Source of the DNA: a virus
Strand: one strand, 5' to 3'
Virus record (IMG/VR): IMGVR_UViG_3300027741_000027
Coordinates: 72,022-136,021 of that record
DNA length: 64,000 nucleotides
Within the stretch, counting starts at the first letter, position 1, and each line of letters starts with the position of its first letter. The position numbers and the translations under genes are program-made. The notes under the pieces are model-generated. The model made no database searches. It was not told the origin of the DNA and saw nothing but the letters and a program-made list of their open reading frames with translations. Shown one piece after another: positions 4,746 through 18,875 of the stretch.

Positions 4746-4927
4746 ACTTTCTGTCGAAAGTAAGCCCGTAAGCAAAATCCCCCGCCTAGGGGGATAAAAA
4801 GAAGACTGCGGGTTACCCTATCCCCAGCTACAATAGGGACTCCTAAAGATCCTCAGGCTTTACCATACCTTTACTATTGGTATGATAGTGGGGGCGGGGC
4901 TGCTATGCCCCACCCTTTACCATCTCT

Positions 4928-5200
4928 TTACTTGCGGTCTACGTTCACGCTCAGGTCGAACGCTGCGTTAATCATGTTGATGGCCTCACGCAGCATGTCG
5001 TCTACTGCGTCTACTGCATCTCTGCGTTGGTCGTGCTGGATAGTGATAGGGTGCCACTCATTCTTCTCTGTGTCCTTGATGTAGTCTGTCTCGTCAAGGC
5101 TATGAACCAACGCCCATGTTTCCTGCTGTGCATCATGCACCATATCTAGGATGTTGTTGAGGCATGTTGTTGGGTCGTGGATGATCTTGGTCTTTGGCAT
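4928..5200 (-). CDS. Hypothetical early protein (90 aa)
   Basis: MPKTKIIHDP...; RBS GAGG and promoter at 5232-5264 indicate start at 5200 rather than 5314. Confidence 0.7.
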   Translation of the reverse strand: MPKTKIIHDPTTCLNNILDMVHDAQQETWALVHSLDETDYIKDTEKNEWHPITIQHDQRRDAVDAVDDMLREAINMINAAFDLSVNVDRK

Positions 5201-5231
5201 TTGGCCGTTCCTCTCATTGGTTGATGGAATC

Positions 5232-5264
5232 ATCTTAGCAGGTGCTAGGTAAAGTAAAGGTAAA
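5232..5264 (-). promoter_or_regulatory. Early promoter with TTTAC-N6-TTTAC box (8-nt class)
   Basis: TTTAC-N6-TTTAC-N8-TGC-TAAGAT on minus strand. Confidence 0.75.
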
Positions 5265-5267
5265 GCT

Positions 5268-5507
5268 TTATGATCCCCAACCGCGAGCCTGACCATACGG
5301 ATCATTGACTTCACGGTATAGGCGCTGTTCTGCCTGCTCCTGAGCGTCTGCGGCGGCGGCGGCAGGGTCAGCGGCCTGTAGTGCTTCCTTTTTTGCCTGA
5401 GCGTCTCTAAGACGCTTTAGGGCTTCATCGTATGCCTGTTGATCCTGTGCGCGTCTCATATCGAACGCTGCATCAGTCATCAGGTTTCTATAATCATTGA
5501 TTGTCAT
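5268..5507 (-). CDS. Hypothetical helical early protein (79 aa), leaderless
   Basis: ATG lies 6 nt after the -10 hexamer TAGGAT. Confidence 0.75.
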   Translation of the reverse strand: MTINDYRNLMTDAAFDMRRAQDQQAYDEALKRLRDAQAKKEALQAADPAAAAADAQEQAEQRLYREVNDPYGQARGWGS

Positions 5508-5513
5508 GGATTC

Positions 5514-5546
5514 ATCCTAGCAGGTCGAAGGTAAAGGAAAGGCAAA
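5514..5546 (-). promoter_or_regulatory. Early promoter with box (8-nt class)
   Basis: TTTGC-N6-TTTAC-N8-TGC-TAGGAT. Confidence 0.75.
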
Positions 5547-5651
5547 ACATCTGTTGCATGTTGTGCAACACGATCCATCTGGTCCTTCCCGCCCACCCTG
5601 TAAGTGTATCGCCATCCGGCGGCGGCAAGAGTAAAGATATGGCAAAAGATT

Positions 5652-5676
5652 GGAGGGGGCGATTGGCACCCCCTCC
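5652..5676. terminator. GC-rich hairpin, probable terminator
   Basis: GGAGGGGGC-gattg-GCACCCCCTCC downstream of 5688..5957. Confidence 0.5.
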
Positions 5677-5687
5677 GCTCTTGCTTG

Positions 5688-5957
5688 CTACGCTTTTGCT
5701 GCGAACCTGCGGCCCTTGTCTGTCAGGCCGTAGTAGTGGGCAGGGCGGCCACGCTTCTCGCTCTTGACCTTGCCTGTGATCTTGACCAGACCGGCCTTCT
5801 GCATCCGTGTCATAAATGACGGGGCAACCTCAAGGCTCATGGCCGTTGCTTGGCCCTTCTGTGCCTTGATTGCTGCCATTACAGTGGCGGCGTTGGCCTC
5901 ACCGAAGATTGTGCGGTGGTGCTTGGTGGTCTTGGTGGTTGTCTTGGTTGATGGCAT
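5688..5957 (-). CDS. Winged helix-turn-helix DNA-binding protein
   Basis: MPSTKTT... with ...RMQKAGLVKITGKVKSEKRGRPAHYYGLTDKG, a typical wHTH recognition helix and wing; RBS AAGGAG sets start at 5957. Confidence 0.65.
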   Translation of the reverse strand: MPSTKTTTKTTKHHRTIFGEANAATVMAAIKAQKGQATAMSLEVAPSFMTRMQKAGLVKITGKVKSEKRGRPAHYYGLTDKGRRFAAKA

Positions 5958-5997
5958 TTGGATTATCTCCTTGTTGGTTGATTGCCTTGTGTTACAC

Positions 5998-6041
5998 ACT
6001 GTATCAAATGATTTGATATTGAAAGGTAAAAGGTAAGTAAA
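5998..6041 (-). promoter_or_regulatory. Early promoter with box (18/19-nt class)
   Basis: TTTAC-N6-TTTAC-N19-TGA-TACAGT. Confidence 0.7.
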
Positions 6042-6053
6042 ATTTAGTCTTCG

Positions 6054-6248
6054 TCAAACGGGCATATTCTTTACGCCGTACTGAATCGCCATCTGTAACC
6101 AATTCCAGTGAAGGGGGGCGTAAAGCTCTTGCGTTCTCTGGCAAGAATGGCGTAATCCGCAATTCCCGAATGGCATATGCCAATTGCCTTCTTCGCTGCT
6201 ACTCCAATGTTCATACGGAGTCGGAGTCTTCTTTTTGTTGGGGTGCAT
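6054..6248 (-). CDS. Hypothetical early protein (64 aa)
   Basis: MHPNKKKTPT...; RBS AGGAG; promoter at 6277-6309. Confidence 0.6.
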   Translation of the reverse strand: MHPNKKKTPTPYEHWSSSEEGNWHMPFGNCGLRHSCQRTQELYAPLHWNWLQMAIQYGVKNMPV

Positions 6249-6276
6249 TCTTATCTCCTGATTGGTTGATAGAGTC

Positions 6277-6309
6277 ATACTATCAGGTGCTAAGTAAAGA
6301 AAAAGTAAA
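6277..6309 (-). promoter_or_regulatory. Early promoter with box (8-nt class)
   Basis: TTTAC-N6-TTTAC-N8-TGA-TAGTAT. Confidence 0.7.
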
Positions 6310-6354
6310 ACTTTCCCAATGCTTTTTACTGCCTTGTCCTCCCGCCCGCCCATC

Positions 6355-6397
6355 ATTATAACGACAGGCGGCGGGGCGCAAGCAAAGGTTAGGTAAA
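6355..6397 (-). promoter_or_regulatory. Promoter with box (18-nt class)
   Basis: TTTAC-N6-TTTGC-N18-CGT-TATAAT. Confidence 0.55.
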
Positions 6398-6448
6398 GGG
6401 TGGAGGGGGCATTTCAGCCCCCTCCGTGCCGCTCAACCAAACGGCAAA

Positions 6449-6709
6449 CTATGAAATCTCGTCCTGAAGCTCCCAAATCTCGATCTGATCGGGGTTCTGA
6501 GTCTGGAGGTTGGCAAAGTAATCGCCAATCGCCTCGTAGATCACGCGGCCCAGATCATCTTCGTTGATCTCTGACTCGTCTGGCGTGAACGGTGTCTTAG
6601 GCACCGCTACCAGAATCAGGCAATCTTCGTGAGCTTCTGCGTCCTGAGCAAGCTCATAGAAAGACTTAGGTGCTGCTTCGATCTTGTTACGACGGTTAAA
6701 GAACTTCAT
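6449..6709 (-). CDS. Acidic hypothetical early protein (86 aa)
   Basis: ORF with AAGGAG RBS and promoter at 6744-6786. Confidence 0.75.
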   Translation of the reverse strand: MKFFNRRNKIEAAPKSFYELAQDAEAHEDCLILVAVPKTPFTPDESEINEDDLGRVIYEAIGDYFANLQTQNPDQIEIWELQDEIS

Positions 6710-6743
6710 GTGATTCTCCTTCGGTTGATTTACTGTGTTTCAC

Positions 6744-6786
6744 ACTCTAGCAGGTCAATTGGAGCTAAAGGTAAAGGAATGGCAAA
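6744..6786 (-). promoter_or_regulatory. Early promoter with box (18-nt class)
   Basis: TTTGC-N6-TTTAC-N18-TGC-TAGAGT. Confidence 0.75.
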
Positions 6787-6799
6787 ACATTAAATTTGA

Positions 6800-6848
6800 T
6801 AAAGAAAGGGCCGGGATTGGGGAACTGTGAAATTCCTCTCCCGGCCCT
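6800..6848 (-). terminator. Intrinsic terminator
   Basis: AGGGCCGGGA...TCCCGGCCCT stem followed by TTCTTT on minus strand. Confidence 0.6.
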
Positions 6849-7112
6849 AACTGTCGCATATGCTGGCTATACCTGCTCAGTGCGCCTATCTTCTGAGTCA
6901 GTCGGCTTTATAGCTGCCTTATCGCTGGACACTCTCTACTTTGAGTTCCGAACCCATGATAGCTGTATAGTCGTCTATCCACTGCACTCGCACCTATGTT
7001 AGCGTGGCATCTCATCACGGTCTGTTTTACGAGATTGCTACCGACTCTCGTTAGTCCTCTAACCGACCGTCGCCGGTCTGACTACATGGCCGATGGGCTA
7101 GCTCCATCAACA
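6800..7112 (-). ncRNA. Candidate ~300-nt structured non-coding RNA
   Basis: Own promoter (TTGACT-17-TATAGT), own terminator, no credible ORF on the sense strand, consecutive hairpins including a GCGA tetraloop. Confidence 0.5.
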
Positions 7113-7118
7113 AGAACA

Positions 7119-7163
7119 ACTATACAGATGGCCCCATATGAAGTCAAGTAAAGGTTTAGTAAA
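7119..7163 (-). promoter_or_regulatory. Sigma70-type promoter abutted by TTTAC box pair
   Basis: TTTAC-N6-TTTAC-TTGACT-17 nt-TATAGT. Confidence 0.75.
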
Positions 7164-7211
7164 GGATTTACCAATGCAATGGATGGTCTTTGTTCCGCCC
7201 TCCCACCCTTC

Positions 7212-7254
7212 ATTATAGCAACAAAACCAATACGAAAAGTAAAGGTTTTGCAAA
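7212..7254 (-). promoter_or_regulatory. Promoter with box (18-nt class)
   Basis: TTTGC-N6-TTTAC-N18-TGC-TATAAT. Confidence 0.75.
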
Positions 7255-7453
7255 AAGCCTATAAAGTGGAAACAGAGAAAGGTGATGTATTCAGGGTTTT
7301 CTTTACTTTTCAGTAGTTTACCCGGATACTTTTCATATTATATAAAGGGGAATATTTTACTTTATATATATTGGTATATTTCACTAGGGATATTCTTAGT
7401 CTTTTCCCTGCAAAATAAAGGTTTTTATTTTTATAAAATAATACAATAAATTG

Positions 7454-7497
7454 ATTATATCATATTTTTTCCATTTGTCAAGTAAATATTTGGTTAA
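7454..7497 (-). promoter_or_regulatory. Sigma70-type promoter abutted by box pair
   Basis: TTAAC-N6-TTTAC-TTGACA-16 nt-TATAAT with TG extension. Confidence 0.7.
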
Positions 7498-7505
7498 TAC
7501 TTTAC

Positions 7506-7565
7506 TTATGCCTTAGCTGCACAAAATACCATCACTGCACCTACAACTGCAAATAATACGGTCAT
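7506..7565 (-). CDS. 19-aa hydrophobic peptide (not in ORF track)
   Basis: MTVLFAVVGAVMVFCAAKA; RBS GAAAGGA 3 nt before ATG. Confidence 0.55.
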   Translation of the reverse strand: MTVLFAVVGAVMVFCAAKA

Positions 7566-7581
7566 AATTCCTTTCAGATTG

Positions 7582-7640
7582 AATATTTTACTTATAAGTA
7601 TGAATACTTTACTTATGATAAGGGATATATTACTTATCAC
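7582..7640 (+). repeat. Iteron-like repeats with 21-22 bp period
   Basis: AATATTTTACTTAT (7582), AATACTTTACTTAT (7603), GATATATTACTTAT (7624); further copies near 7351 and 7496. Confidence 0.6.
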
Positions 7641-7871
7641 CTATTATATACACGGGAGGAAGTGGGGGTGAGTGGAGGGGGGTGGATAGGTGAACAACCT
7701 CACATTGAGCCATTCCATTTGGATTGAAGCACCTCACCCTGCCACCTCACAATCCTGCATTCTTCATTTTTGCTTCCCAATGCTTATCGTCAATCCATTT
7801 GTAAAACTTGAGCGAATTATCCCTCATAGACAGATATAGCTTTTCTTTTGCCTTATTTATTGTTTTCATTA

Positions 7872-8108
7872 TCATGCCCAAGCTCCCTTGTCTTTATTTC
7901 CAAATGGGCCGTTACATTCATCGCAAAAAATATAATCCTCCTCAGGGAATTTTTCTACAATTAAATGAATAGGGCCATCATAAGCAATATTATTGCAATC
8001 AGGCATACGACACTCTCTAGAAGCTGGATAATCAAATGGCGCGGTTATATGAGTGCCAAGACTACCATCTATTTGATCGTCTACTATTGGGTCTATTTCT
8101 TTATTCAT
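7872..8108 (-). CDS. Hypothetical protein with Cys motifs (78 aa)
   Basis: CRMPDC...FCDEC. Confidence 0.6.
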   Translation of the reverse strand: MNKEIDPIVDDQIDGSLGTHITAPFDYPASRECRMPDCNNIAYDGPIHLIVEKFPEEDYIFCDECNGPFGNKDKGAWA

Positions 8109-8313
8109 TGTTATTCTTTTTTCTTGTCAATAGTTCTAGCCTATGACTCCATAGGTCTATAACCAAAGTATATATGGGCGAAATAACTGCTCGTCTTTCT
8201 GGCAGTAATGCTTCCGCCTTTTGGAGATGAATACCAATAAGATGAAGTGATATATATTGGCGTTCAAATCGAAGGCCGATTATTCTTTTCTTTGTATTTA
8301 TTGTTTTATTCAT
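8101..8313 (-). CDS. Hypothetical basic protein (70 aa)
   Basis: Overlap-coupled to neighbour via repeated ATAACAATGAATAAA junction. Confidence 0.5.
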   Translation of the reverse strand: MNKTINTKKRIIGLRFERQYISLHLIGIHLQKAEALLPERRAVISPIYTLVIDLWSHRLELLTRKKNNNE

Positions 8314-8404
8314 TGTTATTTCTTTCTTATTGTTTTATATGTATTCTGGGGATAATCTGAGGGATGATTATGGGCGATTATCAGTATAGCCAACTGTCGT
8401 GAGT

Positions 8405-8641
8405 CTAGGCATCTAGCTCCTCCCACTTTTCTTTTTCTTTTAGGTCTGTGGTATACATTGCGAAACCGAATAGGCCGAACCTCACACGAATATACTTTTC
8501 ATATGAATTAGTTGTTCGACGGTATACGCCAAATAAATCTTTCAATAAAGCAAGCACCTTTCGGAAAAGACGAGTACGCCCTGCCCAAACAATCTTGATT
8601 TCTTTATTCTTTGTTTTATATATTGTTTTATCTATTTCCAT
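8405..8641 (-). CDS. Hypothetical basic protein (78 aa)
   Basis: MEIDKTIYK...; AAAGGA RBS favours start at 8641. Confidence 0.5.
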   Translation of the reverse strand: MEIDKTIYKTKNKEIKIVWAGRTRLFRKVLALLKDLFGVYRRTTNSYEKYIRVRFGLFGFAMYTTDLKEKEKWEELDA

Positions 8642-8670
8642 TGTGTTTTCCTTTGTTATTCTGAGATAGG

Positions 8671-8853
8671 TTATCGGCGATCTCTTTTGTCTATTGAGGC
8701 CGATATTCTTTTCCATTTAGCTTTATCCATTGACAGATAGCTCCACTTGCCAATCCGATCAGCGTACAGGGCAATCTTCAAATAAATCTTTTCTTTTATG
8801 GTGGCCGATTTGATTCTTGCCTCGCATTTAGCTTCCCATATTACTTTATTCAT
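8671..8853 (-). CDS. Hypothetical protein (60 aa)
   Basis: Coupled ORF in the co-oriented small-gene run. Confidence 0.5.
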   Translation of the reverse strand: MNKVIWEAKCEARIKSATIKEKIYLKIALYADRIGKWSYLSMDKAKWKRISASIDKRDRR

Positions 8854-9028
8854 TGTTATCCTTTTTTGCCCATGAATCTAGGTCGTACTTATCAACATTA
8901 GCAATCATGCGCTCAGTATTTCTTTTCTTATCACCTGCCGCATCCCAAAACTTTTTATCGCTCCAAGTGTAAACTCTAAACGAATAATTGCAAATGAAAT
9001 CGTATGTTCTTTTCTTTATATTAGTCAT
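8846..9028 (-). CDS. Hypothetical protein (60 aa)
   Basis: Coupled ORF with RBS. Confidence 0.5.
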   Translation of the reverse strand: MTNIKKRTYDFICNYSFRVYTWSDKKFWDAAGDKKRNTERMIANVDKYDLDSWAKKDNNE

Positions 9029-9182
9029 TATTCCTGTATATTTCTTTTTTGATTACATCTGTTTGCTTCTCAGGCCGATTTTCTTTATTTTATATAAAGA
9101 TTGCCTGCTCACTTCATTATATCAAAGATGTTCACTTATATCTATTATGTAACAAATGTTACATATAAAATAAAGTGCAAAA

Positions 9183-9206
9183 AAGAGAGGGCTTGCGCCC
9201 CCTCTC
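9183..9206. terminator. Hairpin terminator
   Basis: GAGAGGGC-ttgc-GCCCCCTCTC hairpin (imperfect) with A tract on the + side, giving a T tract on minus. Confidence 0.55.
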
Positions 9207-9270
9207 AAACTCTATCCTGCTGCCCACATCACACTTATAAGTATGATAAATAAGAATAAAGCAATGCCGA

Positions 9271-9468
9271 TCATTCGGCCCTCCACTTACCGTCGCGCCA
9301 GATGTATCCCCAATCACTCATTTCTTCGTGATCTTCGTCAGTGCAACGACAGGTGCCATCGCCACTGTAATGATCTGGCATAAGAATAAAGTAATCACAG
9401 GCCATGACTTCTTTGCGGGCGATTTCTTTATTTACAAACATTGCGTCAAGCAGATTTACTCGTCCCAT
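9271..9468 (-). CDS. Hypothetical protein, His/Cys metal-binding motif (65 aa)
   Basis: C....I.MPDHY..DGTCRC; GGAGG RBS; promoter at 9499-9531. Confidence 0.7.
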   Translation of the reverse strand: MGRVNLLDAMFVNKEIARKEVMACDYFILMPDHYSGDGTCRCTDEDHEEMSDWGYIWRDGKWRAE

Positions 9469-9498
9469 TTGGGAACCTCCTGATTAGTTGATGTAACC

Positions 9499-9531
9499 AT
9501 CGTAGCAAATGCTAGGTAAAGAACGAGTAAA
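9499..9531 (-). promoter_or_regulatory. Early promoter with box (8-nt class)
   Basis: TTTAC-N6-TTTAC-N8-TGC-TACGAT. Confidence 0.75.
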
Positions 9532-9533
9532 AC

Positions 9534-9692
9534 CTACTCCTCAATTTCGATAATATCGGCACACTCGCCATCTTCATTGACTAGGATAGCTTCTCTATGG
9601 CCGTCCATCACAAGGTCATACGCTTGCTCAGTAGAGTCAGCTTCGACCTCCCAATACTTTCTAATTACTTCTGTAACTTCGTATCTAGGCAT
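9534..9692 (-). CDS. Small acidic protein, DpnD/PcfM-like (52 aa, not in ORF track)
   Basis: MPRYEVTEVIRKYWEVEADSTEQAYDLV...; paralogue of 9685..9903; GGAGG RBS. Confidence 0.65.
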   Translation of the reverse strand: MPRYEVTEVIRKYWEVEADSTEQAYDLVMDGHREAILVNEDGECADIIEIEE

Positions 9693-9903
9693 TAGTTACC
9701 TCCTGAATCATCCAATCATAATTTTCAATGTAATTAAAAGCGTTATCAAGGTAATCATCCATTACGCAAGAATACTCTAGCTTACCTTCGACAACATCTC
9801 CACCGCCGTCAATAATACTTTTGATAGCTTCACGCTCATTTTCAGCCTCTACAGTGACCGTCTGATAGTGAAGCTCCGGCACCAATACTTCGTACTTAGG
9901 CAT
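9685..9903 (-). CDS. Small acidic protein, DpnD/PcfM-like (72 aa)
   Basis: MPKYEVLV.E...QTVTVEAENEREAI pattern. Confidence 0.7.
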   Translation of the reverse strand: MPKYEVLVPELHYQTVTVEAENEREAIKSIIDGGGDVVEGKLEYSCVMDDYLDNAFNYIENYDWMIQEVTNA

Positions 9904-9906
9904 TAG

Positions 9907-10125
9907 TTACGCCCGATCCCAGACGGGCCAATCGGCAGATTCGGCAATGTCAAGAACATTGTCAATAATTCCTTTTGCGTCAATTGGATTCCAAGACTCG
10001 TCATACACATCCGGCATATCGGGCAAGAAGATGTTTTCGTACTCCTGCAATACGCGAACCACCTCATTAGTTTCGGTGTCCACGAATACCGTGACGGGAA
10101 CCATATACTGAACCGCTGCTTCCAT
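9907..10125 (-). CDS. Acidic hypothetical protein, paralogue of 13668..13892
   Basis: VQY.VPV.VFV.TET.EV.RVL...LDIAE..DWP.WD.A shared. Confidence 0.8.
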   Translation of the reverse strand: MEAAVQYMVPVTVFVDTETNEVVRVLQEYENIFLPDMPDVYDESWNPIDAKGIIDNVLDIAESADWPVWDRA

Positions 10126-10156
10126 AACTGCCTCCTATTTGGTTGATTGCAATATA

Positions 10157-10188
10157 GGGCGGGGCTGTACGCCACCCCGCCCTTTTCT
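10157..10188. terminator. Hairpin terminator
   Basis: AGGGCGGGG...CCCCGCCCT followed by TTTCTTTT. Confidence 0.5.
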
Positions 10189-10219
10189 TTTAGCCGGGAT
10201 TCTCACCCTGTCTACGATC

Positions 10220-10252
10220 AGTCTAGCAAATCGAATGTAAAGGAAGGGTAAA
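10220..10252 (-). promoter_or_regulatory. Early promoter with box (8-nt class)
   Basis: TTTAC-N6-TTTAC-N8-TGC-TAGACT. Confidence 0.75.
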
Positions 10253-10261
10253 ACTATGAAA

Positions 10262-10480
10262 CTATTTACTTTTGTAATTGACTGCTTCTGCAAACACTCC
10301 ATCGCCGTCCCAAAGACTAATGAGGAAGGCATATTTCCACAGACAAAGCACAAAGCTACGAACTACATAATCACCATCATTACTTTTTTGACGATAGAGT
10401 GTCACTCCTACGTTTCGCATAATTTGATGATTTTCATGCCAACGAACTTGCAATTCTTTATTTTTGATGTTGAATTTCAT
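10262..10480 (-). CDS. Hypothetical protein (72 aa)
   Basis: MKFNIKNK...; ATGA overlap with the upstream gene. Confidence 0.55.
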   Translation of the reverse strand: MKFNIKNKELQVRWHENHQIMRNVGVTLYRQKSNDGDYVVRSFVLCLWKYAFLISLWDGDGVFAEAVNYKSK

Positions 10481-10791: not shown

Positions 10792-10806
10792 TACTTTTTA
10801 TAAAAC

Positions 10807-12947: not shown

Positions 12948-13637
12948 TTACCATGCAGTGAAGATGTCTTCATAATCCTGCTGCAACGTTGAGAGGCTCA
13001 ACTGCTGCTGCGGCTTATATCCAGCAAGCGCAATCGTATCTTCTCGCGTAACAGCCCTTTCTTCGTCCAACTTAGTCAGATTTACAAAAGTGCCATTATT
13101 GACTCTATCCCTAATCGTAGAAAAAGCACTGCTTCTAGGATTGTCGGTATTAGAATAATCACAATTATCATGCAAGAGGTCAGCAAGATCGCCAGCAATC
13201 ACGGTGTCATTATTAGCAAAATAATTGTTAATAAACTCTTCACGCTTCATTCTTTCTAGCTTGCGAGCAGGCTTACGATTACTAGACTTTTCATCAATGT
13301 ATACCTTTAGATCTTCCTCAAAAACGTGAAGCCTTCCATTAACTTTAATGTTGCGTAAAACTCCACGATTTGCATAACGCTCAATAGTTTTTTTACTTCT
13401 ATTCGCCTTTTCAGCCGCCTTTTCGTAATCACAAACACTGAGCGGTTCGTGTGACCGATTGATAATCGCATCAATCCTGTCAGACAAAGTTTCACTAGCC
13501 GACTGATCTAGCAAACCCCTCTTGGTCAAAATATCATTCATATTTTTTGCAAAATAAGTTTTCTGTTCCTCTGTCAGAACATCAATAACTTTTATCTCAA
13601 TGGTTGTCAAAACATCATCTACATCTGAGTAATTCAT
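12948..13637 (-). CDS. DNA-binding protein with excisionase/MerR-like HTH
   Basis: YEKAAEKANRSKKTIERYANRGVLRNIKVNGRLHVFEEDL matches the Xis/HTH_17 pattern; AAGGAG RBS. Confidence 0.65.
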   Translation of the reverse strand: MNYSDVDDVLTTIEIKVIDVLTEEQKTYFAKNMNDILTKRGLLDQSASETLSDRIDAIINRSHEPLSVCDYEKAAEKANRSKKTIERYANRGVLRNIKVNGRLHVFEEDLKVYIDEKSSNRKPARKLERMKREEFINNYFANNDTVIAGDLADLLHDNCDYSNTDNPRSSAFSTIRDRVNNGTFVNLTKLDEERAVTREDTIALAGYKPQQQLSLSTLQQDYEDIFTAW

Positions 13638-13667
13638 TGTGTCTCCTTATACTTTTATATTAATTGA

Positions 13668-13892
13668 TTATGCTTGATCCCAAGCGGGCCAATCATAAGT
13701 CTCAGCGATATCAAGGGCGGCTGCTTCAACACCATCGTTCGTCACAGGTTGCCAATCTGTAGTGTCCACTACAGTCTCAGCCTTGTTCAGTTCGATGTTT
13801 TGAGTTTCCAGCAGAACCCTGTCTACCTCGCCCGTCTCAGTGTTTACAAATACTGATACAGGAACTGTGTATTGCACTACGACTTCCATCAC
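13668..13892 (-). CDS. Acidic hypothetical protein, paralogue of 9907..10125
   Basis: Near-collinear similarity; promoter at 13920-13952. Confidence 0.8.
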   Translation of the reverse strand: MMEVVVQYTVPVSVFVNTETGEVDRVLLETQNIELNKAETVVDTTDWQPVTNDGVEAAALDIAETYDWPAWDQA

Positions 13893-13919
13893 TTCTCCCT
13901 CTGTTGGTTTGTAATAACT

Positions 13920-13952
13920 ACTCTAGCAAACTGATGGTAAAGAACAGGCAAA
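13920..13952 (-). promoter_or_regulatory. Early promoter with box (8-nt class)
   Basis: TTTGC-N6-TTTAC-N8-TGC-TAGAGT. Confidence 0.75.
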
Positions 13953-13954
13953 AC

Positions 13955-14227
13955 CTATTCAGTGTCCAGAGCGTGAATCTCTGTAAGCCGCTCTGCGATC
14001 TTATCAAGATCCTTTGGTGTCTCTTCGATAGGAAGAAACGGATCGTCATGGTCAATAATTGTTAGAATAAGTTTCTCATCATCTGAGGCTGTATCAACAA
14101 TAAAGTTTGCTGTCTTGCCGATGATCGAAACTTCTCCTGAGTCAGTCACCTTAGCTTCGTATGGTGTCATCATGGAAATATATCCTGCCACCATGTTGTC
14201 CACTACTTCCTGATTAGTCATTGTCAT
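13955..14227 (-). CDS. Hypothetical acidic protein (90 aa)
   Basis: Coupled ORF. Confidence 0.7.
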   Translation of the reverse strand: MTMTNQEVVDNMVAGYISMMTPYEAKVTDSGEVSIIGKTANFIVDTASDDEKLILTIIDHDDPFLPIEETPKDLDKIAERLTEIHALDTE

Positions 14228-14453
14228 ATCTTTCTTCCATTAGGTCAAGCCCGAACCTGAGTAGCAGCTTCGATGCAGCAATGAGTTTAGCAGACTTATC
14301 AAGCTCTGCCTCTGCTAGCTCAGGATCAATCGTTAGCATACTCTTGGCGAATTCATTTCTTTGAACAACACCGCGATTGATTTCTTTTGTCGCGGTGTTG
14401 AGTGCGCCTAGCACATCGTCAAGCCTAGTATCCGTATGCGCAATAATTGTCAC
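14214..14453 (-). CDS. Hypothetical helical protein (79 aa)
   Basis: Coupled ORF. Confidence 0.7.
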   Translation of the reverse strand: MTIIAHTDTRLDDVLGALNTATKEINRGVVQRNEFAKSMLTIDPELAEAELDKSAKLIAASKLLLRFGLDLMEERYDND

Positions 14454-14632
14454 TTGCCATCCCTCACAGGATCGTGCTTAGGTGGCTTGGTACCCATAAA
14501 CGCCGGGTGCATCGTGCGAGCCACAGGGCGCGGCACATCAAGCATATGATTCTGCTTGTAGATCGTTACAGGTTGGCCCGCCATCTGCGCATGATCCAGA
14601 GCGGCCTTCCACTGATTCATAAAATCACTCAT
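14450..14632 (-). CDS. Hypothetical protein (60 aa)
   Basis: AAAGGA RBS; coupled to the next gene. Confidence 0.6.
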   Translation of the reverse strand: MSDFMNQWKAALDHAQMAGQPVTIYKQNHMLDVPRPVARTMHPAFMGTKPPKHDPVRDGK

Positions 14633-14646
14633 TTGTTTTCCTTTGT

Positions 14647-15009
14647 TTAGTACCTGAATAGGTAGTTGTTGCCTTGAAATTCTACATCGGTGTAATCATA
14701 ACGAAGTTCGTCTGCTGCTGCCGACCAATCAATATGAGTGGCAGGCCAAGTTGTTTCGTCATCAATGGCTCCGATATCGTGAGCAAATTCTTTGGCGTAA
14801 TCCTCAAAATAATCTTCATCAATAAAATATACGCTATCCCGATCTGCTTCTTCTAGCGTGATGCCCATATCAGATTCAAGCTCAATAAGCTCATTAAGCT
14901 CTTCTTGCAGATTTTCTTTTTCGAGAGGAAGAAGGGTGTTTTCTTCTACATTATTTTGTAGAAGCTCAGTAAGTTCTACCTTGCGATTAAGTAGTGCATT
15001 AATATCCAT
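14647..15009 (-). CDS. Highly acidic protein resembling the ArdA antirestriction C-terminal domain
   Basis: YFIDEDYFEDYAKEFA.DIG...HIDW.AAADEL..DY..VEF.G..YLFR; about 30% Asp/Glu; AAGGAG RBS. Confidence 0.55.
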   Translation of the reverse strand: MDINALLNRKVELTELLQNNVEENTLLPLEKENLQEELNELIELESDMGITLEEADRDSVYFIDEDYFEDYAKEFAHDIGAIDDETTWPATHIDWSAAADELRYDYTDVEFQGNNYLFRY

Positions 15010-15038
15010 TACGATCTCCTTAGTTGGTTGTTGCAATC

Positions 15039-15071
15039 AGCATAGCAAATCAAGGGTAAAGACTTAGTAAA
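15039..15071 (-). promoter_or_regulatory. Early promoter with box (8-nt class)
   Basis: TTTAC-N6-TTTAC-N8-TGC-TATGCT. Confidence 0.75.
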
Positions 15072-15073
15072 AC

Positions 15074-15289
15074 CTAATCCTTGTCCTCGCTAAAGTCAGG
15101 AAGCGGATCCGCAAAGTGAGTCATGTACATATCCACTGCCTGCTTGACCTGATTGTAAAGACTAGCAGCATGAGGTTCTACAAAAGCATCATACTTTTCA
15201 TTCCACTCAATGCCTTCATCCTGAGCCTGCTGGAAATAACTATCGCTAACATAATCTTCGATAGCTTTGTAAATATTATTGTCAGTCAT
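15074..15289 (-). CDS. Acidic hypothetical protein (71 aa)
   Basis: MTDNNIYK...; overlaps upstream stop. Confidence 0.65.
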   Translation of the reverse strand: MTDNNIYKAIEDYVSDSYFQQAQDEGIEWNEKYDAFVEPHAASLYNQVKQAVDMYMTHFADPLPDFSEDKD

Positions 15290-15530
15290 TCTTGTCCCCC
15301 TCTGATTTAATATTGAATGGAATGGTTGTCTCTGCATCTGTAATAAAACTAATCTCAGCCCATTCGATTGAATCCTCGTTATAGATTCCGACAATTCGGG
15401 CTACGTCATCGTTGTCGTCTGTGTGCTGCTCTACGGCCTCCTGAAAGCTGCTGTAAGGGCCGTACTGCCCTAGCGTATCGGGATTGTCAGAAGCAGGGCC
15501 ATTGAGCAATAGAGCGTATACTTTCATCAT
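15282..15530 (-). CDS. Acidic hypothetical protein with YGPY motif
   Basis: AGGAG RBS; GQYGPYSSF.EA. Confidence 0.7.
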   Translation of the reverse strand: MMKVYALLLNGPASDNPDTLGQYGPYSSFQEAVEQHTDDNDDVARIVGIYNEDSIEWAEISFITDAETTIPFNIKSEGDKND

Positions 15531-15539
15531 TGTCTCCTA

Positions 15540-16136
15540 TCAAGTGTGAACGTCACAGGTAAGGATAGCAAGCCCGAAGTCCTCGCCATCAGTTAGGTCA
15601 AAGGTACGCGCCGTGTAAGGCGAAAACTGATAAGCATTAAAGAACGGCGGAGTAAAATACTTATCATTAAGCTGCTCATAAACCCTAGCAAGGTTAGGAC
15701 GAACCGATAGCCTCCAAGAATCAATGCCATCATCGGTGCCTGCGTAGCTAGCTGCAAGAGCCTCACGAATAGTTTGGGCAGCTTCATCAGTAGATTTAAA
15801 CTTATACTGATAATTATGATCGCCCTCAGTCAGAACGCGAAGATCGTTGCCGATATCCCAATACATACAATTGTATGCAGACTTCATAGCGGCATCGTAG
15901 TCCCAGCTATCACGATCATCAACCCAAGAGTCAAAGCCGCCGCGATAGGTGTCATCACTAATCACTGCCTCGCCATCCTTGACGGCTAGGGCAAGAGGTG
16001 TGTACCAATTGTTATCGTCAAACTTATGCTCAACATAAGAACTAAATGCACCATGTTCAATTGCAAAGATACGTCCGTCCTGAACAATGTCGTCAGTGTC
16101 ATCAATGTTAATAAGAAAATGCTGTAGAGCGTGAAT
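15540..16136 (-). CDS. Hypothetical protein, probably 198 aa with ATT start (ORF track gives 15540..15965)
   Basis: Frame is open 57 codons upstream of GTG 15965; AGGAGG lies 8 nt before ATT at 16136; promoter at 16178-16220. Confidence 0.6.
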   Translation of the reverse strand: MHALQHFLINIDDTDDIVQDGRIFAIEHGAFSSYVEHKFDDNNWYTPLALAVKDGEAVISDDTYRGGFDSWVDDRDSWDYDAAMKSAYNCMYWDIGNDLRVLTEGDHNYQYKFKSTDEAAQTIREALAASYAGTDDGIDSWRLSVRPNLARVYEQLNDKYFTPPFFNAYQFSPYTARTFDLTDGEDFGLAILTCDVHT

Positions 16137-16177
16137 TGTAATCGCCTCCTATGGCGGTCTGTTTAGTCAGTAGATAC

Positions 16178-16220
16178 AACTTAGCAGTTTCGCTTTTGTC
16201 TTGGGTAAAGGTTTGGTTAA
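16178..16220 (-). promoter_or_regulatory. Early promoter with box (18-nt class)
   Basis: TTAAC-N6-TTTAC-N18-TGC-TAAGTT. Confidence 0.7.
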
Positions 16221-16402
16221 GACTTGCTCAACTTACGTTCGATGTACCTAACGAGAATATCAGCGTTAGCGATATCGCCCTCCATGTATTTAATCATCTC
16301 GTCGTTGTTGTCCTGAGTTTCTAGCGTATTTTGCAACTCCTCCGCATAACTATTTGCGATGCGGATAATTTCTTCTGCAATATCATTCTCAATACTAATC
16401 AT
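16217..16402 (-). CDS. Hypothetical helical protein (61 aa)
   Basis: MISIEND...; ATGA overlap. Confidence 0.6.
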   Translation of the reverse strand: MISIENDIAEEIIRIANSYAEELQNTLETQDNNDEMIKYMEGDIANADILVRYIERKLSKS

Positions 16403-16782
16403 ACTTCCATCTCCTCGCAATTACAATCCCAATCCATATCCTCGCCGCAATCATCGCAAAGGCTATCATCCTCCTGTGGATCAAAGTCAATCGTGAGGGT
16501 CTTGACCCTATTGCGATTGTCAAACTCTGCGTACACAGGGTACACACCGTCACCGTACAAGGTGCCACAGGCGATAGCAAGGTTCTCAAGCTGTCCGTAA
16601 CCATTGCTACTCAGAGTTGCGTTGCAGCAACCATCGTAATTCATTTCGTATGATGAACTTGGCTTATTCTTAGTGCTAGTGTCAAATTCTTTTACAAAGT
16701 CTGCATTGATGTAGCAGGGGTCAATAATCATAATCTGGCCTGAGTCTACCGCGACCTGACCGATAAGTGTCTTTGTAGTCAT
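16399..16782 (-). CDS. DUF4241-like protein
   Basis: IGQVAVDSGQIMIIDPCY...TLYGDGVYPVY motif; AAGGAG RBS sets start at 16782. Confidence 0.65.
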   Translation of the reverse strand: MTTKTLIGQVAVDSGQIMIIDPCYINADFVKEFDTSTKNKPSSSYEMNYDGCCNATLSSNGYGQLENLAIACGTLYGDGVYPVYAEFDNRNRVKTLTIDFDPQEDDSLCDDCGEDMDWDCNCEEMEV

Positions 16783-16819
16783 TGTGTTTCTCCTTGTTTT
16801 GTGTTCAACAACTGAATAC

Positions 16820-16862
16820 AACATAGCAAACCGTTTCACCGCTTGGGTAAAGACTTGGCAAA
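16820..16862 (-). promoter_or_regulatory. Early promoter with box (18-nt class)
   Basis: TTTGC-N6-TTTAC-N18-TGC-TATGTT. Confidence 0.75.
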
Positions 16863-16864
16863 AC

Positions 16865-17173
16865 CTACGTTCCCCGAATGGTGGCACCCTTTAGAGGCCA
16901 ACCCTGACACACCTTCACAGTGACATTCTTTCCAACTGGATTATTTGCTGTAAAAGTAAACAGGACTGTATCACCCTTGCCGCAACCCTTGAATCCAACA
17001 AATATAGAATCGCGGTCAATAAGTTTTACATTAGTAAATCCATTGGTCACAAGGGTATTCTCTGCCACCCTCTGATCTGCAAACTGTCCAAACGCACAAC
17101 CCGCAAACAAAACAAAAACAATAGCTACGAGGGTTCCAACCCATGTATATTTATCTTTGATATTTCTTTTCAT
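16865..17173 (-). CDS. Membrane-anchored/exported protein with two Cys
   Basis: N-terminal hydrophobic helix; GCGKGD...F.A.NP.GK.V.V.VC.G. Confidence 0.7.
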   Translation of the reverse strand: MKRNIKDKYTWVGTLVAIVFVLFAGCAFGQFADQRVAENTLVTNGFTNVKLIDRDSIFVGFKGCGKGDTVLFTFTANNPVGKNVTVKVCQGWPLKGATIRGT

Positions 17174-17598
17174 TAGTAAAGGTGTCCTGATCTAGAGAAT
17201 GGGTCTTGCATGATCTTAGCTCGCATCTTCTCAAGATCAGCAAGGTCGTTGTGAGAGCGTTCTGCCCTGTGATTAGTCAGTTGGTCTTGGATATAGCGCA
17301 GCTTGGACACGGTATGCGGCCTAGCGTCAGTGGAATACCTATCGGGGACGCTCACGGTCATGCGAGGGTCACGGATAACAGACTCAACCCGTTCAGACCA
17401 CTCCTGTTCCTCCTGAGACTTCTTATTGGCCTTAGCAGCGTGAGCCGCTTGGATTCCAGTGATGGTAACAGGGGCAGAAGTGCCTGTGATTACTTTTTCT
17501 TCTGTATGTTCGGGACAGTTGAGAGGTAAACGACCGCGCTGTGCGGCTCTCTGCCACTCATGGTTCCCTGCTTGGCAATGCAATGTTTTCATAGTCAT
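17173..17598 (-). CDS. Hypothetical protein with N-terminal C-x3-H/C metal site, leaderless
   Basis: LHCQAGNHEW...RGRLPLNCPEH; ATG 6 nt after -10. Confidence 0.7.
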   Translation of the reverse strand: MTMKTLHCQAGNHEWQRAAQRGRLPLNCPEHTEEKVITGTSAPVTITGIQAAHAAKANKKSQEEQEWSERVESVIRDPRMTVSVPDRYSTDARPHTVSKLRYIQDQLTNHRAERSHNDLADLEKMRAKIMQDPFSRSGHLY

Positions 17599-17604
17599 AA
17601 GTTT

Positions 17605-17647
17605 ACCTTAGCACACTTGATTACTTTTTAAGTAAAGACTTAGTAAA
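17605..17647 (-). promoter_or_regulatory. Early promoter with box (18-nt class)
   Basis: TTTAC-N6-TTTAC-N18-TGC-TAAGGT. Confidence 0.75.
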
Positions 17648-17733
17648 GGAAGGGAGGACGCAGCGGGGGAGTATTGTCTTTTATATCCGAAGCCAATGGG
17701 GACGGGCATTGGCTGGAGTCCTCAATATATTAC

Positions 17734-18720
17734 TTAAGCGTTAAGGACGAGTTCAAAGCCCCTCTGCTTAAGTGCGTTGTCATCGAAGCTACGCGCCATT
17801 TGTGAGCCACGCTTAGTCATCTTGCGACCGTAATCGGCATACTCTGCGATTGCGTTAGCTGCGCACCACTTGCTGCCCGGTGCGTTGCCTGTAGTGTCGC
17901 CATTGACGCCTTCGCCCCTGTAGATCGCCATGATTGCATTCTTTGCAACTGAGCGATTAGTTACAGCACGATCACCCATGCTGCCCTCAACAGGGTAAAG
18001 CTCATCAAGAACAGAGCGCAGACGGCCCTCTGAAAAAGAAGTCAGAGCCAACTGATCGCCAAGATCCTTAAATTGCTTGTAATAGTCAATGGTAATACCC
18101 ATGACGTTACGAGCCTCATGGAGCTTTGCATTAATATTACCTGTGTGACGTACAGTGTAGGTGCGCTTACCCTGCTTGGCCCTGCTTACAGCCCAACCAA
18201 GAGTGTTTGCGCAAACAATACGAATTGGGCTAACAGACACAAGGCAAGCAGACTTACCATCGTGAGCATTAGCAATAAATACATATTGCCCAACATCGTC
18301 ACCTGCAACCTGAATGTAATCAGGCATCTTGCACAGTACCCATACCTTCTTACCTGCGTACAGGGAACCTGCGGTTTCGTACATCATATCTGTGCCAATA
18401 AGATTGTCCATGAAAGCAAATGCCTCATGGTTCTGAATTGGCTTGTAACGCTCTGTTACGACACCCATTACATCGTTGGTATCCTCACGGACGTTCATCC
18501 AAAGATTGTCTACCTTTGGGTACGTTGTGATGTTCTGACCACCGACGTTGGTAATAATTTCCTGATGAACAGGGCGCTGAATGATGTTCCAATCAAGACC
18601 TGAAAGCTCTAGTGCTTCCTTGATCGAACCGGGGTACTGATCTAGTACGTTACCAAGACCATGCCACGGCATTTCGCGTACCGAGAACATCTGATCTTTG
18701 TCTGTAATTCCGTGTGCCAT
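17734..18720 (-). CDS. DUF932 / TIGR03299 phage-plasmid family protein
   Basis: MFSVRE.PWHGLG, ETAGSL..GKKVW, NAHDG, TPIR/SPIRIVCANT, ...HT motifs. Confidence 0.9.
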   Translation of the reverse strand: MAHGITDKDQMFSVREMPWHGLGNVLDQYPGSIKEALELSGLDWNIIQRPVHQEIITNVGGQNITTYPKVDNLWMNVREDTNDVMGVVTERYKPIQNHEAFAFMDNLIGTDMMYETAGSLYAGKKVWVLCKMPDYIQVAGDDVGQYVFIANAHDGKSACLVSVSPIRIVCANTLGWAVSRAKQGKRTYTVRHTGNINAKLHEARNVMGITIDYYKQFKDLGDQLALTSFSEGRLRSVLDELYPVEGSMGDRAVTNRSVAKNAIMAIYRGEGVNGDTTGNAPGSKWCAANAIAEYADYGRKMTKRGSQMARSFDDNALKQRGFELVLNA

Positions 18721-18761
18721 TTGCTGCTCCTTTGTTTTGTTGTATTCAACTGCTGAACAGG

Positions 18762-18770
18762 AGTGTAGCA
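18762..18770 (-). promoter_or_regulatory. Extended -10 promoter of the DUF932 gene; inverted box pair at 18794-18809
   Basis: TGC-TACACT; TTTAC-N6-TTTAC on the + strand upstream. Confidence 0.6.
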
Positions 18771-18875
18771 GCTATTTCATCATTGAAGAGGATTTTACCA
18801 AGATTTTACCTTTCGATATGATTCTGGCTTGATTAATCTTATTAAAATAAGAAAAACAAATCTTTAATTAATACA

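What the first reader, a model, noticed from the sequence alone, without database searches (positions are those of the whole stretch)
4859..18809. Early regulon defined by 19 tandem TTT[A/G]C-N6-TTTAC boxes phased to extended -10 promoters
Pairs with an exact 6-nt spacer (11-bp period) read as G[TC][AT]AA-N6-G[TC][AT]AA on + at 5249, 5531, 6026, 6294, 6382, 6771, 7148, 7239, 7482, 9516, 10237, 13937, 15056, 16205, 16847 and 17632, and inverted at 4859, 4916 and 18794. Nearly all 16 minus-sense pairs sit either 8 nt or 18-19 nt upstream of TGn-TAnnnT (one has CGT instead of TGn); two directly abut a TTGAC[AT] -35. The two geometries differ by one helical turn. Head-to-tail binding to direct repeats is established for OmpR/PhoB-family and MerR/Xis-like (BldC-type) winged-helix proteins. 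I did not notice pairs beyond 19 kb but did not scan exhaustively.
Basis: partly seen in the sequence, partly recalled or inferred. Interest (0 to 1): 0.85.

Follow-up and report, generated by a model that had tools for sequence, protein, structure and literature searches.

The report
Phased TTTAC-box phage early promoters
An uncultured 136-kb phage and its close relatives drive about twenty small early-type genes from promoters in which two TTTAC boxes 11 bp apart take the place of the usual -35 element; bacteria use this same layout for promoters switched on by OmpR/PhoB-type response regulators, so the phage's early programme may be wired to a host signalling protein.

Summary
The pattern occurs 27 times in the window against 4.2 expected. 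There are 20 true sites, all between 4859 and 18809, and none in the other 120 kb of the genome. Seventeen point with the minus-strand genes. Seven have an extended -10 (TGnTAnnnT) exactly 8 nt downstream, eight have it at 18-19 nt, and two abut a TTGAC -35. The same cluster is conserved in at least three related IMG/VR phages, where 40 of 67 box pairs have the 8-nt geometry. Orthologous promoters switch between 8 and 18 nt through an exact 10-nt indel.

A scan of 185,579 species genomes found this architecture upstream of Na/Pi-cotransporter (Pho-type) and kinase genes in Clostridia. In Chloroflexota it sits next to an OmpR-family regulator-kinase pair, upstream of ABC transporters.

My best reading is an OmpR/PhoB-type, -35-replacing activator promoter class. 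The phages encode no detectable OmpR-type domain, so a host response regulator is the likeliest binder (about 0.5). The binder, the host, the start sites and the early timing are all unproven. The Xis/MerR-like candidates are not supported. A clade-specific 89-aa winged-helix protein remains a rival. I file this as a new variant of a known kind, because cyanophage Pho boxes set a precedent.

The parts
17605..17647 (-). Box promoter with 18-nt spacing. Boxes lie at 17632-17647 and the extended -10 (TGCTAAGGT) at 17605-17613. The ATG at 17598 is only 6 nt after the -10, so the 141-aa gene 17173-17598 is leaderless.
16820..16862 (-). Box promoter with 18-nt spacing and -10 TGCTATGTT. It drives gene 16399-16782, which is DUF4241-like.
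16178..16220 (-). Box promoter with 18-nt spacing. The distal box is TTAAC and the -10 is TGCTAAGTT. The downstream gene is unclear.
15039..15071 (-). Box promoter with 8-nt spacing and -10 TGCTATGCT. A third register TTTGC overlaps the TG. It drives gene 14647-15009.
13920..13952 (-). Box promoter with 8-nt spacing and -10 TGCTAGAGT. It drives gene 13668-13889, followed by the HTH_17 gene 12948-13637.
10220..10252 (-). Box promoter with 8-nt spacing and -10 TGCTAGACT. It drives gene 9903-10175.
9499..9531 (-). Box promoter with 8-nt spacing and -10 TGCTACGAT. It drives gene 9271-9468.
7454..7497 (-). Box pair directly abutting a consensus TTGACA / TATAAT promoter (12 of 12 matches). The roughly 200 nt downstream are ORF-poor.
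7212..7254 (-). Box promoter with 18-nt spacing and -10 TGCTATAAT. The transcript would begin with a conserved G-rich leader.
7119..7163 (-). Box pair abutting TTGACT-17-TATAGT. It leads into an ORF-poor stretch of about 310 nt. In G003, 94 of the 95 compared positions are identical.
6744..6786 (-). Box promoter with 18-nt spacing that drives gene 6449-6709. The orthologous promoters in G003 and G001 have 8-nt spacing, and the difference is one exact 10-nt insertion in this genome.
   Evidence: alignment A5
6355..6397 (-). Box promoter with 18-nt spacing and CGT in place of TGn before TATAAT. It has the G-rich leader and is preceded by a terminator hairpin. The G003 orthologue has 8-nt spacing.
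6277..6309 (-). Box promoter with 8-nt spacing and -10 TGATAGTAT. It drives gene 6054-6248.
5998..6041 (-). Box promoter with 19-nt spacing that drives the winged-helix gene. A perfect 7+1+7 palindrome lies between the boxes and the -10.
5603..5646 (-). Box promoter with 19-nt spacing and CGA in place of TGn. It has the G-rich leader and is preceded by a terminator hairpin.
5514..5546 (-). Box promoter with 8-nt spacing and -10 TGCTAGGAT. The ATG at 5507 lies 6 nt after the -10, so gene 5268-5507 is leaderless.
5232..5264 (-). Box promoter with 8-nt spacing and -10 TGCTAAGAT. It drives gene 4928-5200, the last gene of the block.
18794..18809 (+). Box pair in the plus sense, in the divergent gap between the DUF932 gene (minus strand, -10 TGCTACACT at 18762-18770) and the plus-strand genes. 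Relatives have a different arrangement here.
4859..4931 (+). Two plus-sense box pairs (4859-4874 and 4916-4931) flanking a GC-rich hairpin at the convergent 3' end of the block. They are conserved in G001 and G003, but no conserved -10 follows them.
5688..5957 (-). 89-aa MarR/PadR-like winged-helix protein. It is the only DNA-binding candidate found whose distribution matches the boxes.

Best explanation
The boxes are the upstream half of a dedicated promoter class for the phage's block of small early-type genes. Each promoter has a host sigma-A/sigma-70-type extended -10 (TGnTAnnnT) but no -35. In place of the -35 are two 5-6-bp half-sites, (T/C)TTT(A/G)C(C/T) and CTTTAC(C/T), in direct repeat with an 11-bp period. 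They are centred near -31.5 (8-nt class), one turn further upstream near -41.5 (18-19-nt class), or directly against a real -35. This is the layout of promoters activated by OmpR/PhoB-family response regulators. In those, a head-to-tail dimer of winged-helix domains sits on the two half-sites, takes the place of the sigma region 4 / -35 contact, and recruits RNA polymerase through the beta-flap and sigma region 4. The phages encode no detectable domain of that family, so the binder is most likely a host response regulator of PhoP/PhoB, KdpE or GlnR/MtrA type. That would couple early phage transcription to a host signalling state. Shown here: the motif, its confinement, orientation, quantised spacing and conservation, and the use of the same architecture by response-regulator regulons in bacteria. 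Inferred: that these are active promoters, that the effect is activation, and that the binder is a host protein.
For: Enrichment and confinement. Fixed 8 or 18-19-nt spacing to YGnTAnnnT, followed within 25-70 nt by SD+ATG or a leaderless ATG. Conservation in related phages G001, G002 and G003, always in one block of about 15 kb and one orientation. A consensus from 39 sites with invariant CTTTAC and free spacers. Box positions are 93% identical between G000 and G003, against 47-65% in the spacers. An orthologous promoter moves from 8 to 18 nt through one exact 10-nt indel, and a second case does the same; this points to a face-of-helix constraint, as expected for a factor that touches RNA polymerase. 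The GTDB-wide scan for the architecture gave recurrent functional contexts. All 5 of the ~580-aa downstream genes sampled in Clostridia are Na/Pi-cotransporter+PhoU genes, and 3 are DUF4118 (KdpD-type) kinases. In Chloroflexota, MacB/FtsX permeases follow the sites, with an orthologous OmpR-family regulator plus kinase immediately upstream in 4 of 4 genomes. Those loci have 43-70% GC, where an AT-rich 18-base match is unlikely by chance. Literature: the E. coli Pho box is two 11-bp direct repeats; B. subtilis PhoP sites are TT(A/T/C)ACA with 11-bp periodicity; the L. paracasei pstS site has TTTACA twice at 11 bp (PMC11870197). KdpE half-sites are TTTATA/TTTACA with a 5-bp spacer (PMC3264566). 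The GlnR box has a 5+6+5 format with an essential A at position 4 (PMC10704036). In M. tuberculosis, tandem PhoP dimers overlap the -35 and displace sigma-A region 4 (PMC11825685). Host PhoB controls some cyanophage genes (PMC10976474).
Against: No binder is identified and the host is unknown. Random samples of 301 Chloroflexota and 301 Actinomycetota genomes show the pattern in only 3 and 2 genomes, so they give no host clue. Extended -10 promoters can work without any activator. A box-free TGCTAnnnT promoter heads the first gene in G001, and others occur elsewhere in this genome. The two consensus promoters at 7482 and 7148 also carry boxes, at a third phase about 3 bp off, though they should need no help. 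Three box pairs are reversed and two of them have no -10. Relying on a conditionally active regulator for nearly all early promoters would be risky for a lytic phage. Bioinformatic Pho-box calls in phages have proved unreliable (PMC10976474). The bacterial scan selected on the geometry, and about half of its 61 hits may be chance.
Confidence: 0.5

Rival explanations
1. A phage-encoded factor of another fold binds the boxes and activates these promoters as a delayed-early or middle class. This would be analogous to T4 MotA or lambda CII. The 89-aa winged-helix protein (5688-5957) is the leading candidate.
For: The boxes are restricted to a narrow phage clade. The winged-helix protein is likewise clade-restricted, with only 5 close and about 23 remote homologues among billions of proteins. 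It is present in G000, G001 and G003. Its gene lies inside the regulon behind its own box promoter. Box-free extended -10 promoters exist that could give the first transcripts.
Against: The fold is MarR/PadR-like with only weak matches (best E 3.7e-3, model pLDDT 69.7). Such proteins usually bind palindromes as dimers, and a perfect palindrome sits in its own promoter. It was not found in the G002 stretches compared, and that contig breaks inside the region. Two distant relatives sit in contigs without boxes. An activator made from a promoter that needs it has a start-up problem. The half-site and geometry match OmpR-family sites too closely for an unrelated fold to be the simplest reading.
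Confidence: 0.27
2. The boxes are operators for a repressor, either phage-made (for example the winged-helix protein) or a host protein. The repressor shuts early transcription off, or keeps it silent, by occupying the -24 to -39 region.
For: The 8-nt class puts the boxes inside the core promoter. In 4 of 7 such window sites a third 11-bp register runs into the TG of the -10. Strong consensus promoters that need no activator (7482, 7148) carry boxes too. Box pairs without a promoter lie at the 3' end of the block. OmpR-family proteins can also repress (PMC11825685, PMC6525291).
Against: Simple occlusion does not require spacing quantised at 8 or 18-19 nt, nor an exact 10-nt indel between orthologues. 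In the 18-nt class the boxes lie upstream of the polymerase core contacts. The bacterial promoters with the identical geometry belong to regulons that are typically activated. The third register is not conserved in G001.
Confidence: 0.15
3. No dedicated regulator exists. On this reading the repeats are a by-product of duplicated promoter-terminator cassettes, of T-rich terminator tails, or of some non-transcriptional function such as iterons or a packaging signal.
For: At about five sites the box pair directly follows a GC-rich hairpin and could serve as its U-tract. The region is an array of short promoter-gene-terminator units.
Against: Only the boxes and the -10 are conserved, while the spacers and flanks diverge. 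Most sites have no hairpin upstream. Strict co-orientation with the genes and fixed distance to the -10 do not fit iterons or a packaging signal.
Confidence: 0.05

Closest known systems
Pho-box promoters of PhoB/PhoP (OmpR/PhoB family), with related KdpE and GlnR/MtrA boxes
   Same: Two direct-repeat half-sites with an 11-bp period. A TTTAC(A/C)-type half-site, as for B. subtilis or Lacticaseibacillus PhoP and for KdpE. The 5+6+5 format of GlnR boxes. The site ends about 10 bp upstream of the -10 hexamer and stands in for the -35. More upstream arrangements also occur.
   Different: The sites are in a phage, about 20 of them in 14 kb. No cognate regulator is known, and none of this family is encoded by the phage. 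The inter-box spacer shows no AT-rich preference. Neither binding nor phosphate (or any other signal) dependence is shown.
Cyanophage genes controlled by host PhoBR (P-SSM2 pstS; S-PM2d low-P genes)
   Same: A phage promoter carrying binding sites for a host OmpR/PhoB-family response regulator.
   Different: In those phages only a handful of auxiliary or replication genes respond, the boxes are loose (PyTTAAPyPy(T/A)) and their positions vary. Here almost the whole early-type promoter set shares a sharply defined box and geometry, in an unrelated phage group.
T4 middle promoters (MotA box plus AsiA sigma appropriation)
   Same: A phage-specific promoter class scattered through the early region. 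It has a sigma-70-type -10 (often extended) and a factor site near -30 replacing the -35.
   Different: T4 uses a single 9-bp MotA box, not two phased repeats. This comparison rests on my own knowledge; MotA and AsiA homologues were not searched for.
Lambda CII-dependent promoters (TTGC-N6-TTGC straddling the -35)
   Same: Short direct repeats separated by 6 nt around the -35 of weak phage promoters, bound by a phage activator.
   Different: The period is 10 bp rather than 11 and the repeats are tetranucleotides. CII serves lysogeny promoters. This comparison rests on my own knowledge; CII-like proteins were not searched for.
RpaB HLR1 sites of cyanobacteria
   Same: An OmpR-family regulator, a (G/T)TTACA half-site, and position-dependent activation or repression.
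   Different: HLR1 is 8+2, a 10-bp period (PMC6525291). Here the period is strictly 11 bp.

Membership tests
OmpR/PhoB-type response-regulator-dependent (Pho-box-like) promoter | Two or more direct-repeat half-sites with a 10-11-bp period | tested here: met
   The period is exactly 11 bp at all 20 window sites and at 67 sites in four phages.
OmpR/PhoB-type response-regulator-dependent (Pho-box-like) promoter | Half-site of the kind recognised by family members | tested here: met
   TTTAC(C/T) matches published PhoP, KdpE and GlnR-type half-sites (PMC11870197, PMC3264566, PMC10704036). It also matches sites next to OmpR-family regulator genes and Pho-type genes in bacteria.
OmpR/PhoB-type response-regulator-dependent (Pho-box-like) promoter | Site overlaps or replaces the -35, about 10 bp upstream of the -10 hexamer, or lies integral helical turns further upstream | tested here: met
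   The 8-nt class has TTTACC + 7 nt + TGn + hexamer. The 18-19-nt class lies one turn further upstream. An exact 10-nt indel separates orthologues. The two promoters whose boxes abut a -35 are about 3 bp out of this phase.
OmpR/PhoB-type response-regulator-dependent (Pho-box-like) promoter | A cognate regulator with a Trans_reg_C winged-helix domain is available | tested here: inconclusive
   None is encoded by G000-G003 (Pfam six-frame search; local HMM, nothing below E=2). A host protein cannot be checked because the host is unknown.
OmpR/PhoB-type response-regulator-dependent (Pho-box-like) promoter | Regulator binding and regulator-dependent transcription | not testable with these tools
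   This needs EMSA or DAP-seq, and start-site mapping in the infected host.
BldC / Xis-type (HTH_17, MerR-like) head-to-tail binder encoded by the phage | The candidate protein co-occurs with the boxes | tested here: not met
   The 229-aa HTH_17 protein occurs only in G000. The 86-aa protein is also present in box-less G006 and G007.
Alternative sigma or sigma region-4 protein reading the box as a -35 | The protein co-occurs with the boxes, and the box sits at one fixed -35 distance | tested here: not met
   The 127-aa Sigma70_r4_2 protein has an invariant recognition helix. It is found in 17 more distant phages that lack box clusters. The boxes occur at several distances from the -10, and also without any -10.
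RpaB HLR1 | 8-nt repeats separated by 2 nt (10-bp period) | tested here: not met
   The period is 11 bp throughout; the HLR1 definition is from PMC6525291.
T4 MotA-type middle promoter | A single MotA box near -30 plus MotA and AsiA proteins | not tested
   The anatomy differs (two phased boxes). No search was made for MotA or AsiA homologues.

The most novel reading that the evidence does not exclude
A whole clade of large lytic-type phages has wired essentially its entire early gene programme (about 20 promoters per genome) to one host two-component response regulator, for example a phosphate-starvation PhoP/PhoB type. The start of infection would then be gated by a host nutrient or stress signal, and the many high-affinity sites on replicating phage DNA could also titrate that regulator away from host genes.
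Probability: 0.35. Interest if true: 0.75.

Novelty: new variant of a known kind. Interest (0 to 1): 0.55.

Why it matters
Early promoters of uncultured phages are almost never defined. Here a sharp motif with a fixed geometry gives about 20 predicted promoters per genome and a concrete, testable mechanism. If a host response regulator reads them, a phage would be making its whole early programme conditional on a host signalling state. That goes well beyond the few Pho-regulated auxiliary genes known in cyanophages, and it bears on how nutrient status controls phage success in nature. The motif also offers a handle for host assignment: look for the bacterium whose own regulon uses the same boxes. 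The exact 10-bp switches between orthologous promoters are a natural experiment on helical phasing.

Tried and rejected
1. The 229-aa HTH_17 protein as binder: rejected, because it is not conserved in relatives.
2. The 86-aa MerR-type protein: rejected, because it is a core gene that box-less phages also carry.
3. The 127-aa sigma region-4 protein: rejected, because 17 more distant phages have it and none has a box cluster.
4. A hidden OmpR-type domain in the phage: none found by Pfam six-frame search or by a local HMM built from four regulators.
5. RpaB HLR1: the period is wrong.
6. WhiB as a host marker: absent.
7. Analogous but different boxes in distant relatives G006 and G007 (57% GC): none seen in k-mer pair counts or by inspecting extended -10 sites.
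8. Phage G004, which has five tandem boxes plus the same -10: it shares no proteins with this phage and has 53.6% GC, so it is an unrelated parallel case, not kin.
9. Host identification: megablast to known phages found nothing. The terminase is only 30-35% identical to actinophage, Myrna and Microcystis-phage terminases. A RecA scan of genomes found nothing. The sigma-4 family has one provirus in a Solirubrobacter genome. Phylum samples were uninformative. One of the two actinobacterial matches is in an unpublished genome (G567); no claim here rests on it.
10. ESM Atlas searches on two conserved 141-aa early proteins gave nothing usable.
11. Rfam found only tRNAs.

Full report
WHAT THE DNA IS. 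The window is bases 72,022-136,021 of a 136,021-bp virus record (40.6% GC). A 126-nt repeat joins its two ends. The record encodes a terminase distantly related (30-35%) to those of Rhodococcus phage E3, mycobacteriophage Myrna and some Microcystis phages. It has five tRNAs and a replication module with a Pol III alpha, RecA and RuvC. No close relative is present among deposited phage genomes.

Window 4.9-18.8 kb is a block of about 45 small minus-strand ORFs. Their few recognisable families are typical of early or anti-defence regions: DUF932, DpnD/PcfM-like and an anti-restriction PHROG. 'Early' is therefore an inference from gene content, not a measurement.

In the whole genome every convincing copy lies in window 4859-18809. 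Seventeen are co-oriented with the minus-strand genes.

- At seven of these, YGnTAnnnT begins exactly 8 nt after the proximal box.
- At eight, it begins 18-19 nt after.
- At two, the boxes abut TTGACA or TTGACT with a proper -10.
- About 0.1 such coincidences are expected by chance.

Most sites are followed within 25-70 nt by a Shine-Dalgarno sequence and a start codon. Twice (17598, 5507) an ATG lies 6 nt after the -10, which implies leaderless mRNAs. Ordinary -35/-10 promoter matches in the region are at chance level, so this is the region's main promoter type.

CONSERVATION. A pattern scan of IMG/VR found the same architecture many times in three large related contigs: G001 (127 kb), G002 (132 kb) and G003 (97 kb). 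Whole-record scans show one cluster per genome, in one orientation, in the homologous block.

Over the four phages, 40 of 67 box pairs have the -10 at 8 nt and 13 have it at 18-19 nt. The consensus of 39 sites of the 8-nt class has these elements:

- a distal box (T/C)TTT(A/g)C(C/T);
- three free positions, then T/c;
- an invariant proximal CTTTAC(C/t);
- seven weakly conserved positions;
- TG(C)TAnnnT, followed by G.

Between G000 and G003, box positions are 93% identical while the spacers are 47-65% identical. Most telling, the promoter of the same gene (6449-6709) has 18-nt spacing here but 8-nt spacing in G003 and G001. The only difference is one exact 10-nt insertion. The promoter at 6382 shows the same switch. 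Spacing is thus quantised by one helical turn, as expected if the bound factor must face RNA polymerase.

WHAT KIND OF SITE IT IS. In the 8-nt class the proximal half-site ends about 10 bp before the -10 hexamer and the pair is centred near -31.5. This matches the published description of the E. coli Pho box. Half-sites of the TTTAC(A/C) type with 11-bp periodicity are published for PhoP of Bacillus and Lacticaseibacillus and for KdpE. The 5+6+5 format is that of actinobacterial GlnR boxes. Cryo-EM work shows tandem head-to-tail PhoP dimers overlapping the -35 and displacing sigma-A region 4.

I tested this lead independently by scanning one genome from each of 185,579 species for the architecture. 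It returned 61 loci; roughly 35 are expected by chance at even base composition, so the contexts matter more than the count.

- In Clostridia, all five of the ~580-aa downstream genes examined are Na/Pi cotransporter-PhoU genes, and three more are KdpD-type (DUF4118) kinases.
- In Chloroflexota (loci of 43-70% GC), the sites precede MacB/FtsX permeases or Cthe_2159 proteins.
- In four of four of those genomes, an orthologous 220-aa OmpR-family regulator and its kinase lie immediately upstream of the box promoters.

Each bacterial genome has only 1-6 such sites. Random samples of 301 genomes each from Chloroflexota and Actinomycetota rarely have any. In bacteria, then, this is a small-regulon architecture, not a general promoter type.

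WHO BINDS. No OmpR-type domain is detectable in the phages. The candidate DNA-binding proteins fared as follows.

- The 229-aa HTH_17 protein is unique to G000.
- The 86-aa MerR-type protein and the highly conserved 127-aa sigma region-4 protein are core genes. They are also present in distant phages of 57% GC that have no box clusters.
- The 89-aa protein at 5688-5957 is clade-restricted like the boxes. It lies behind its own box promoter.
- Its model (pLDDT 69.7) resembles MarR/PadR winged helices only weakly, and not OmpR effectors. A perfect palindrome in its own promoter looks like its more natural target.

A host response regulator is therefore the leading candidate and a phage factor is the main rival. 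The host itself could not be identified. Weak hints point to a Gram-positive or actinobacterial-type host: leaderless starts, actinophage-like terminase, and a provirus of the wider phage group in a Solirubrobacter genome.

OPEN POINTS AGAINST A SIMPLE STORY.
- Box-free TGCTAnnnT promoters exist, including at the first gene in G001.
- The two consensus promoters carry boxes at a phase about 3 bp off the other classes.
- Three box pairs are reversed, and two of them flank a hairpin at the 3' end of the block with no conserved -10.
- A repressor role is therefore not excluded.

COMPARISON AND NOVELTY. Host PhoBR control of a few cyanophage genes is established, so a phage using a host response regulator is not new in kind. 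What is new is the scale (nearly all promoters of the early-type block), the sharply defined box and geometry, the helical-turn switching between orthologues, and the phage group. I therefore file it as a new variant of a known kind, with moderate interest. The mechanism is inferred; nothing about binding, timing or activation has been measured.

Noticed in passing
window 7200-7220, 6340-6363 and 5590-5611 (minus strand); also L005, L009, L016: Three box promoters with near-consensus -10 elements start a conserved G-rich leader: three GGG runs and then GGA, about 16 nt. The same module recurs at least seven times in the related phages, often just after a GC-rich terminator hairpin. It could be a small-RNA family, a G-quadruplex-type element or an attenuator.
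   Followed up: partly
window, 5' leaders of genes starting at 5200, 6248, 6709, 9468, 13889, 15009; same in L005, L009, L016, L018: Many early mRNA leaders share an A/C-rich element (consensus ATCAACCAA) 1-3 nt before the Shine-Dalgarno sequence. This could be a translational enhancer.
   Followed up: no
window 5652-5676 and about 6398-6425 (minus strand): GC-rich terminator hairpins are followed directly by a box pair, so the T-rich boxes could double as the terminator's U-tract. These form very compact terminator-promoter cassettes.
   Followed up: partly
window 6008-6022 (minus strand): A perfect 7+1+7 palindrome (ATCAAAT c ATTTGAT) lies between the boxes and the -10 of the winged-helix gene, and is conserved in G003. 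It is probably that protein's own operator.
   Followed up: partly
window 7255-7453 and 6801-7118 (minus strand): The two strongest sigma-70-type promoters of the region (7482, 7148) lead into ORF-poor stretches of about 200 and 310 nt. These are candidate non-coding RNAs. Rfam has no match.
   Followed up: partly
G000 8099-8482 (L032), outside the window: A 127-aa protein consists of an N-terminal part plus a Sigma70_r4_2 domain, with no region 2. It has more than 800 homologues at 60-98% identity and an invariant recognition helix. It is a core gene of a wide group of phages of about 90-170 kb, and its function is unknown.
   Followed up: partly
L013 / L023 (IMGVR_UViG_3300033149_001159, positions 53775-53823): An unrelated 68.7-kb phage (53.6% GC, terminal repeats) has five tandem 11-bp CTTTACGC boxes followed 8 nt later by TGCTATGCT and a gene. 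This is a parallel use of the same architecture.
   Followed up: partly
L125, L160, L140, L107 (Chloroflexota MAGs): A conserved module of OmpR-family regulator (220 aa), kinase (about 373 aa), box promoter, small ORF, second box promoter, then MacB/FtsX permease and ABC ATPase. It gives a predicted binding site for this regulator family in Chloroflexota.
   Followed up: partly
L102, L106, L111, L119, L147 (Clostridia MAGs): Na/Pi cotransporter-PhoU genes are preceded by the box pair with an almost fixed spacer (CGCAT or CGAAT), 7 nt before TGCTATAAT. This is a likely Pho box of Oscillospiraceae and Lachnospiraceae.
   Followed up: partly
window 18720-18880, compared with L036, L037, L038: The promoter of the first gene (DUF932) differs in each relative: reversed boxes here, forward boxes at 8 nt in L038, no boxes in G001, and a single box abutting TTGACA in G002.
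   Followed up: partly
G000 21-146 and 135896-136021: A 126-nt exact repeat joins the two ends of the record, offset by 20 nt from the start. It is probably an assembly overlap of a circularly permuted or terminally redundant genome, although the record is classed as linear.
   Followed up: partly
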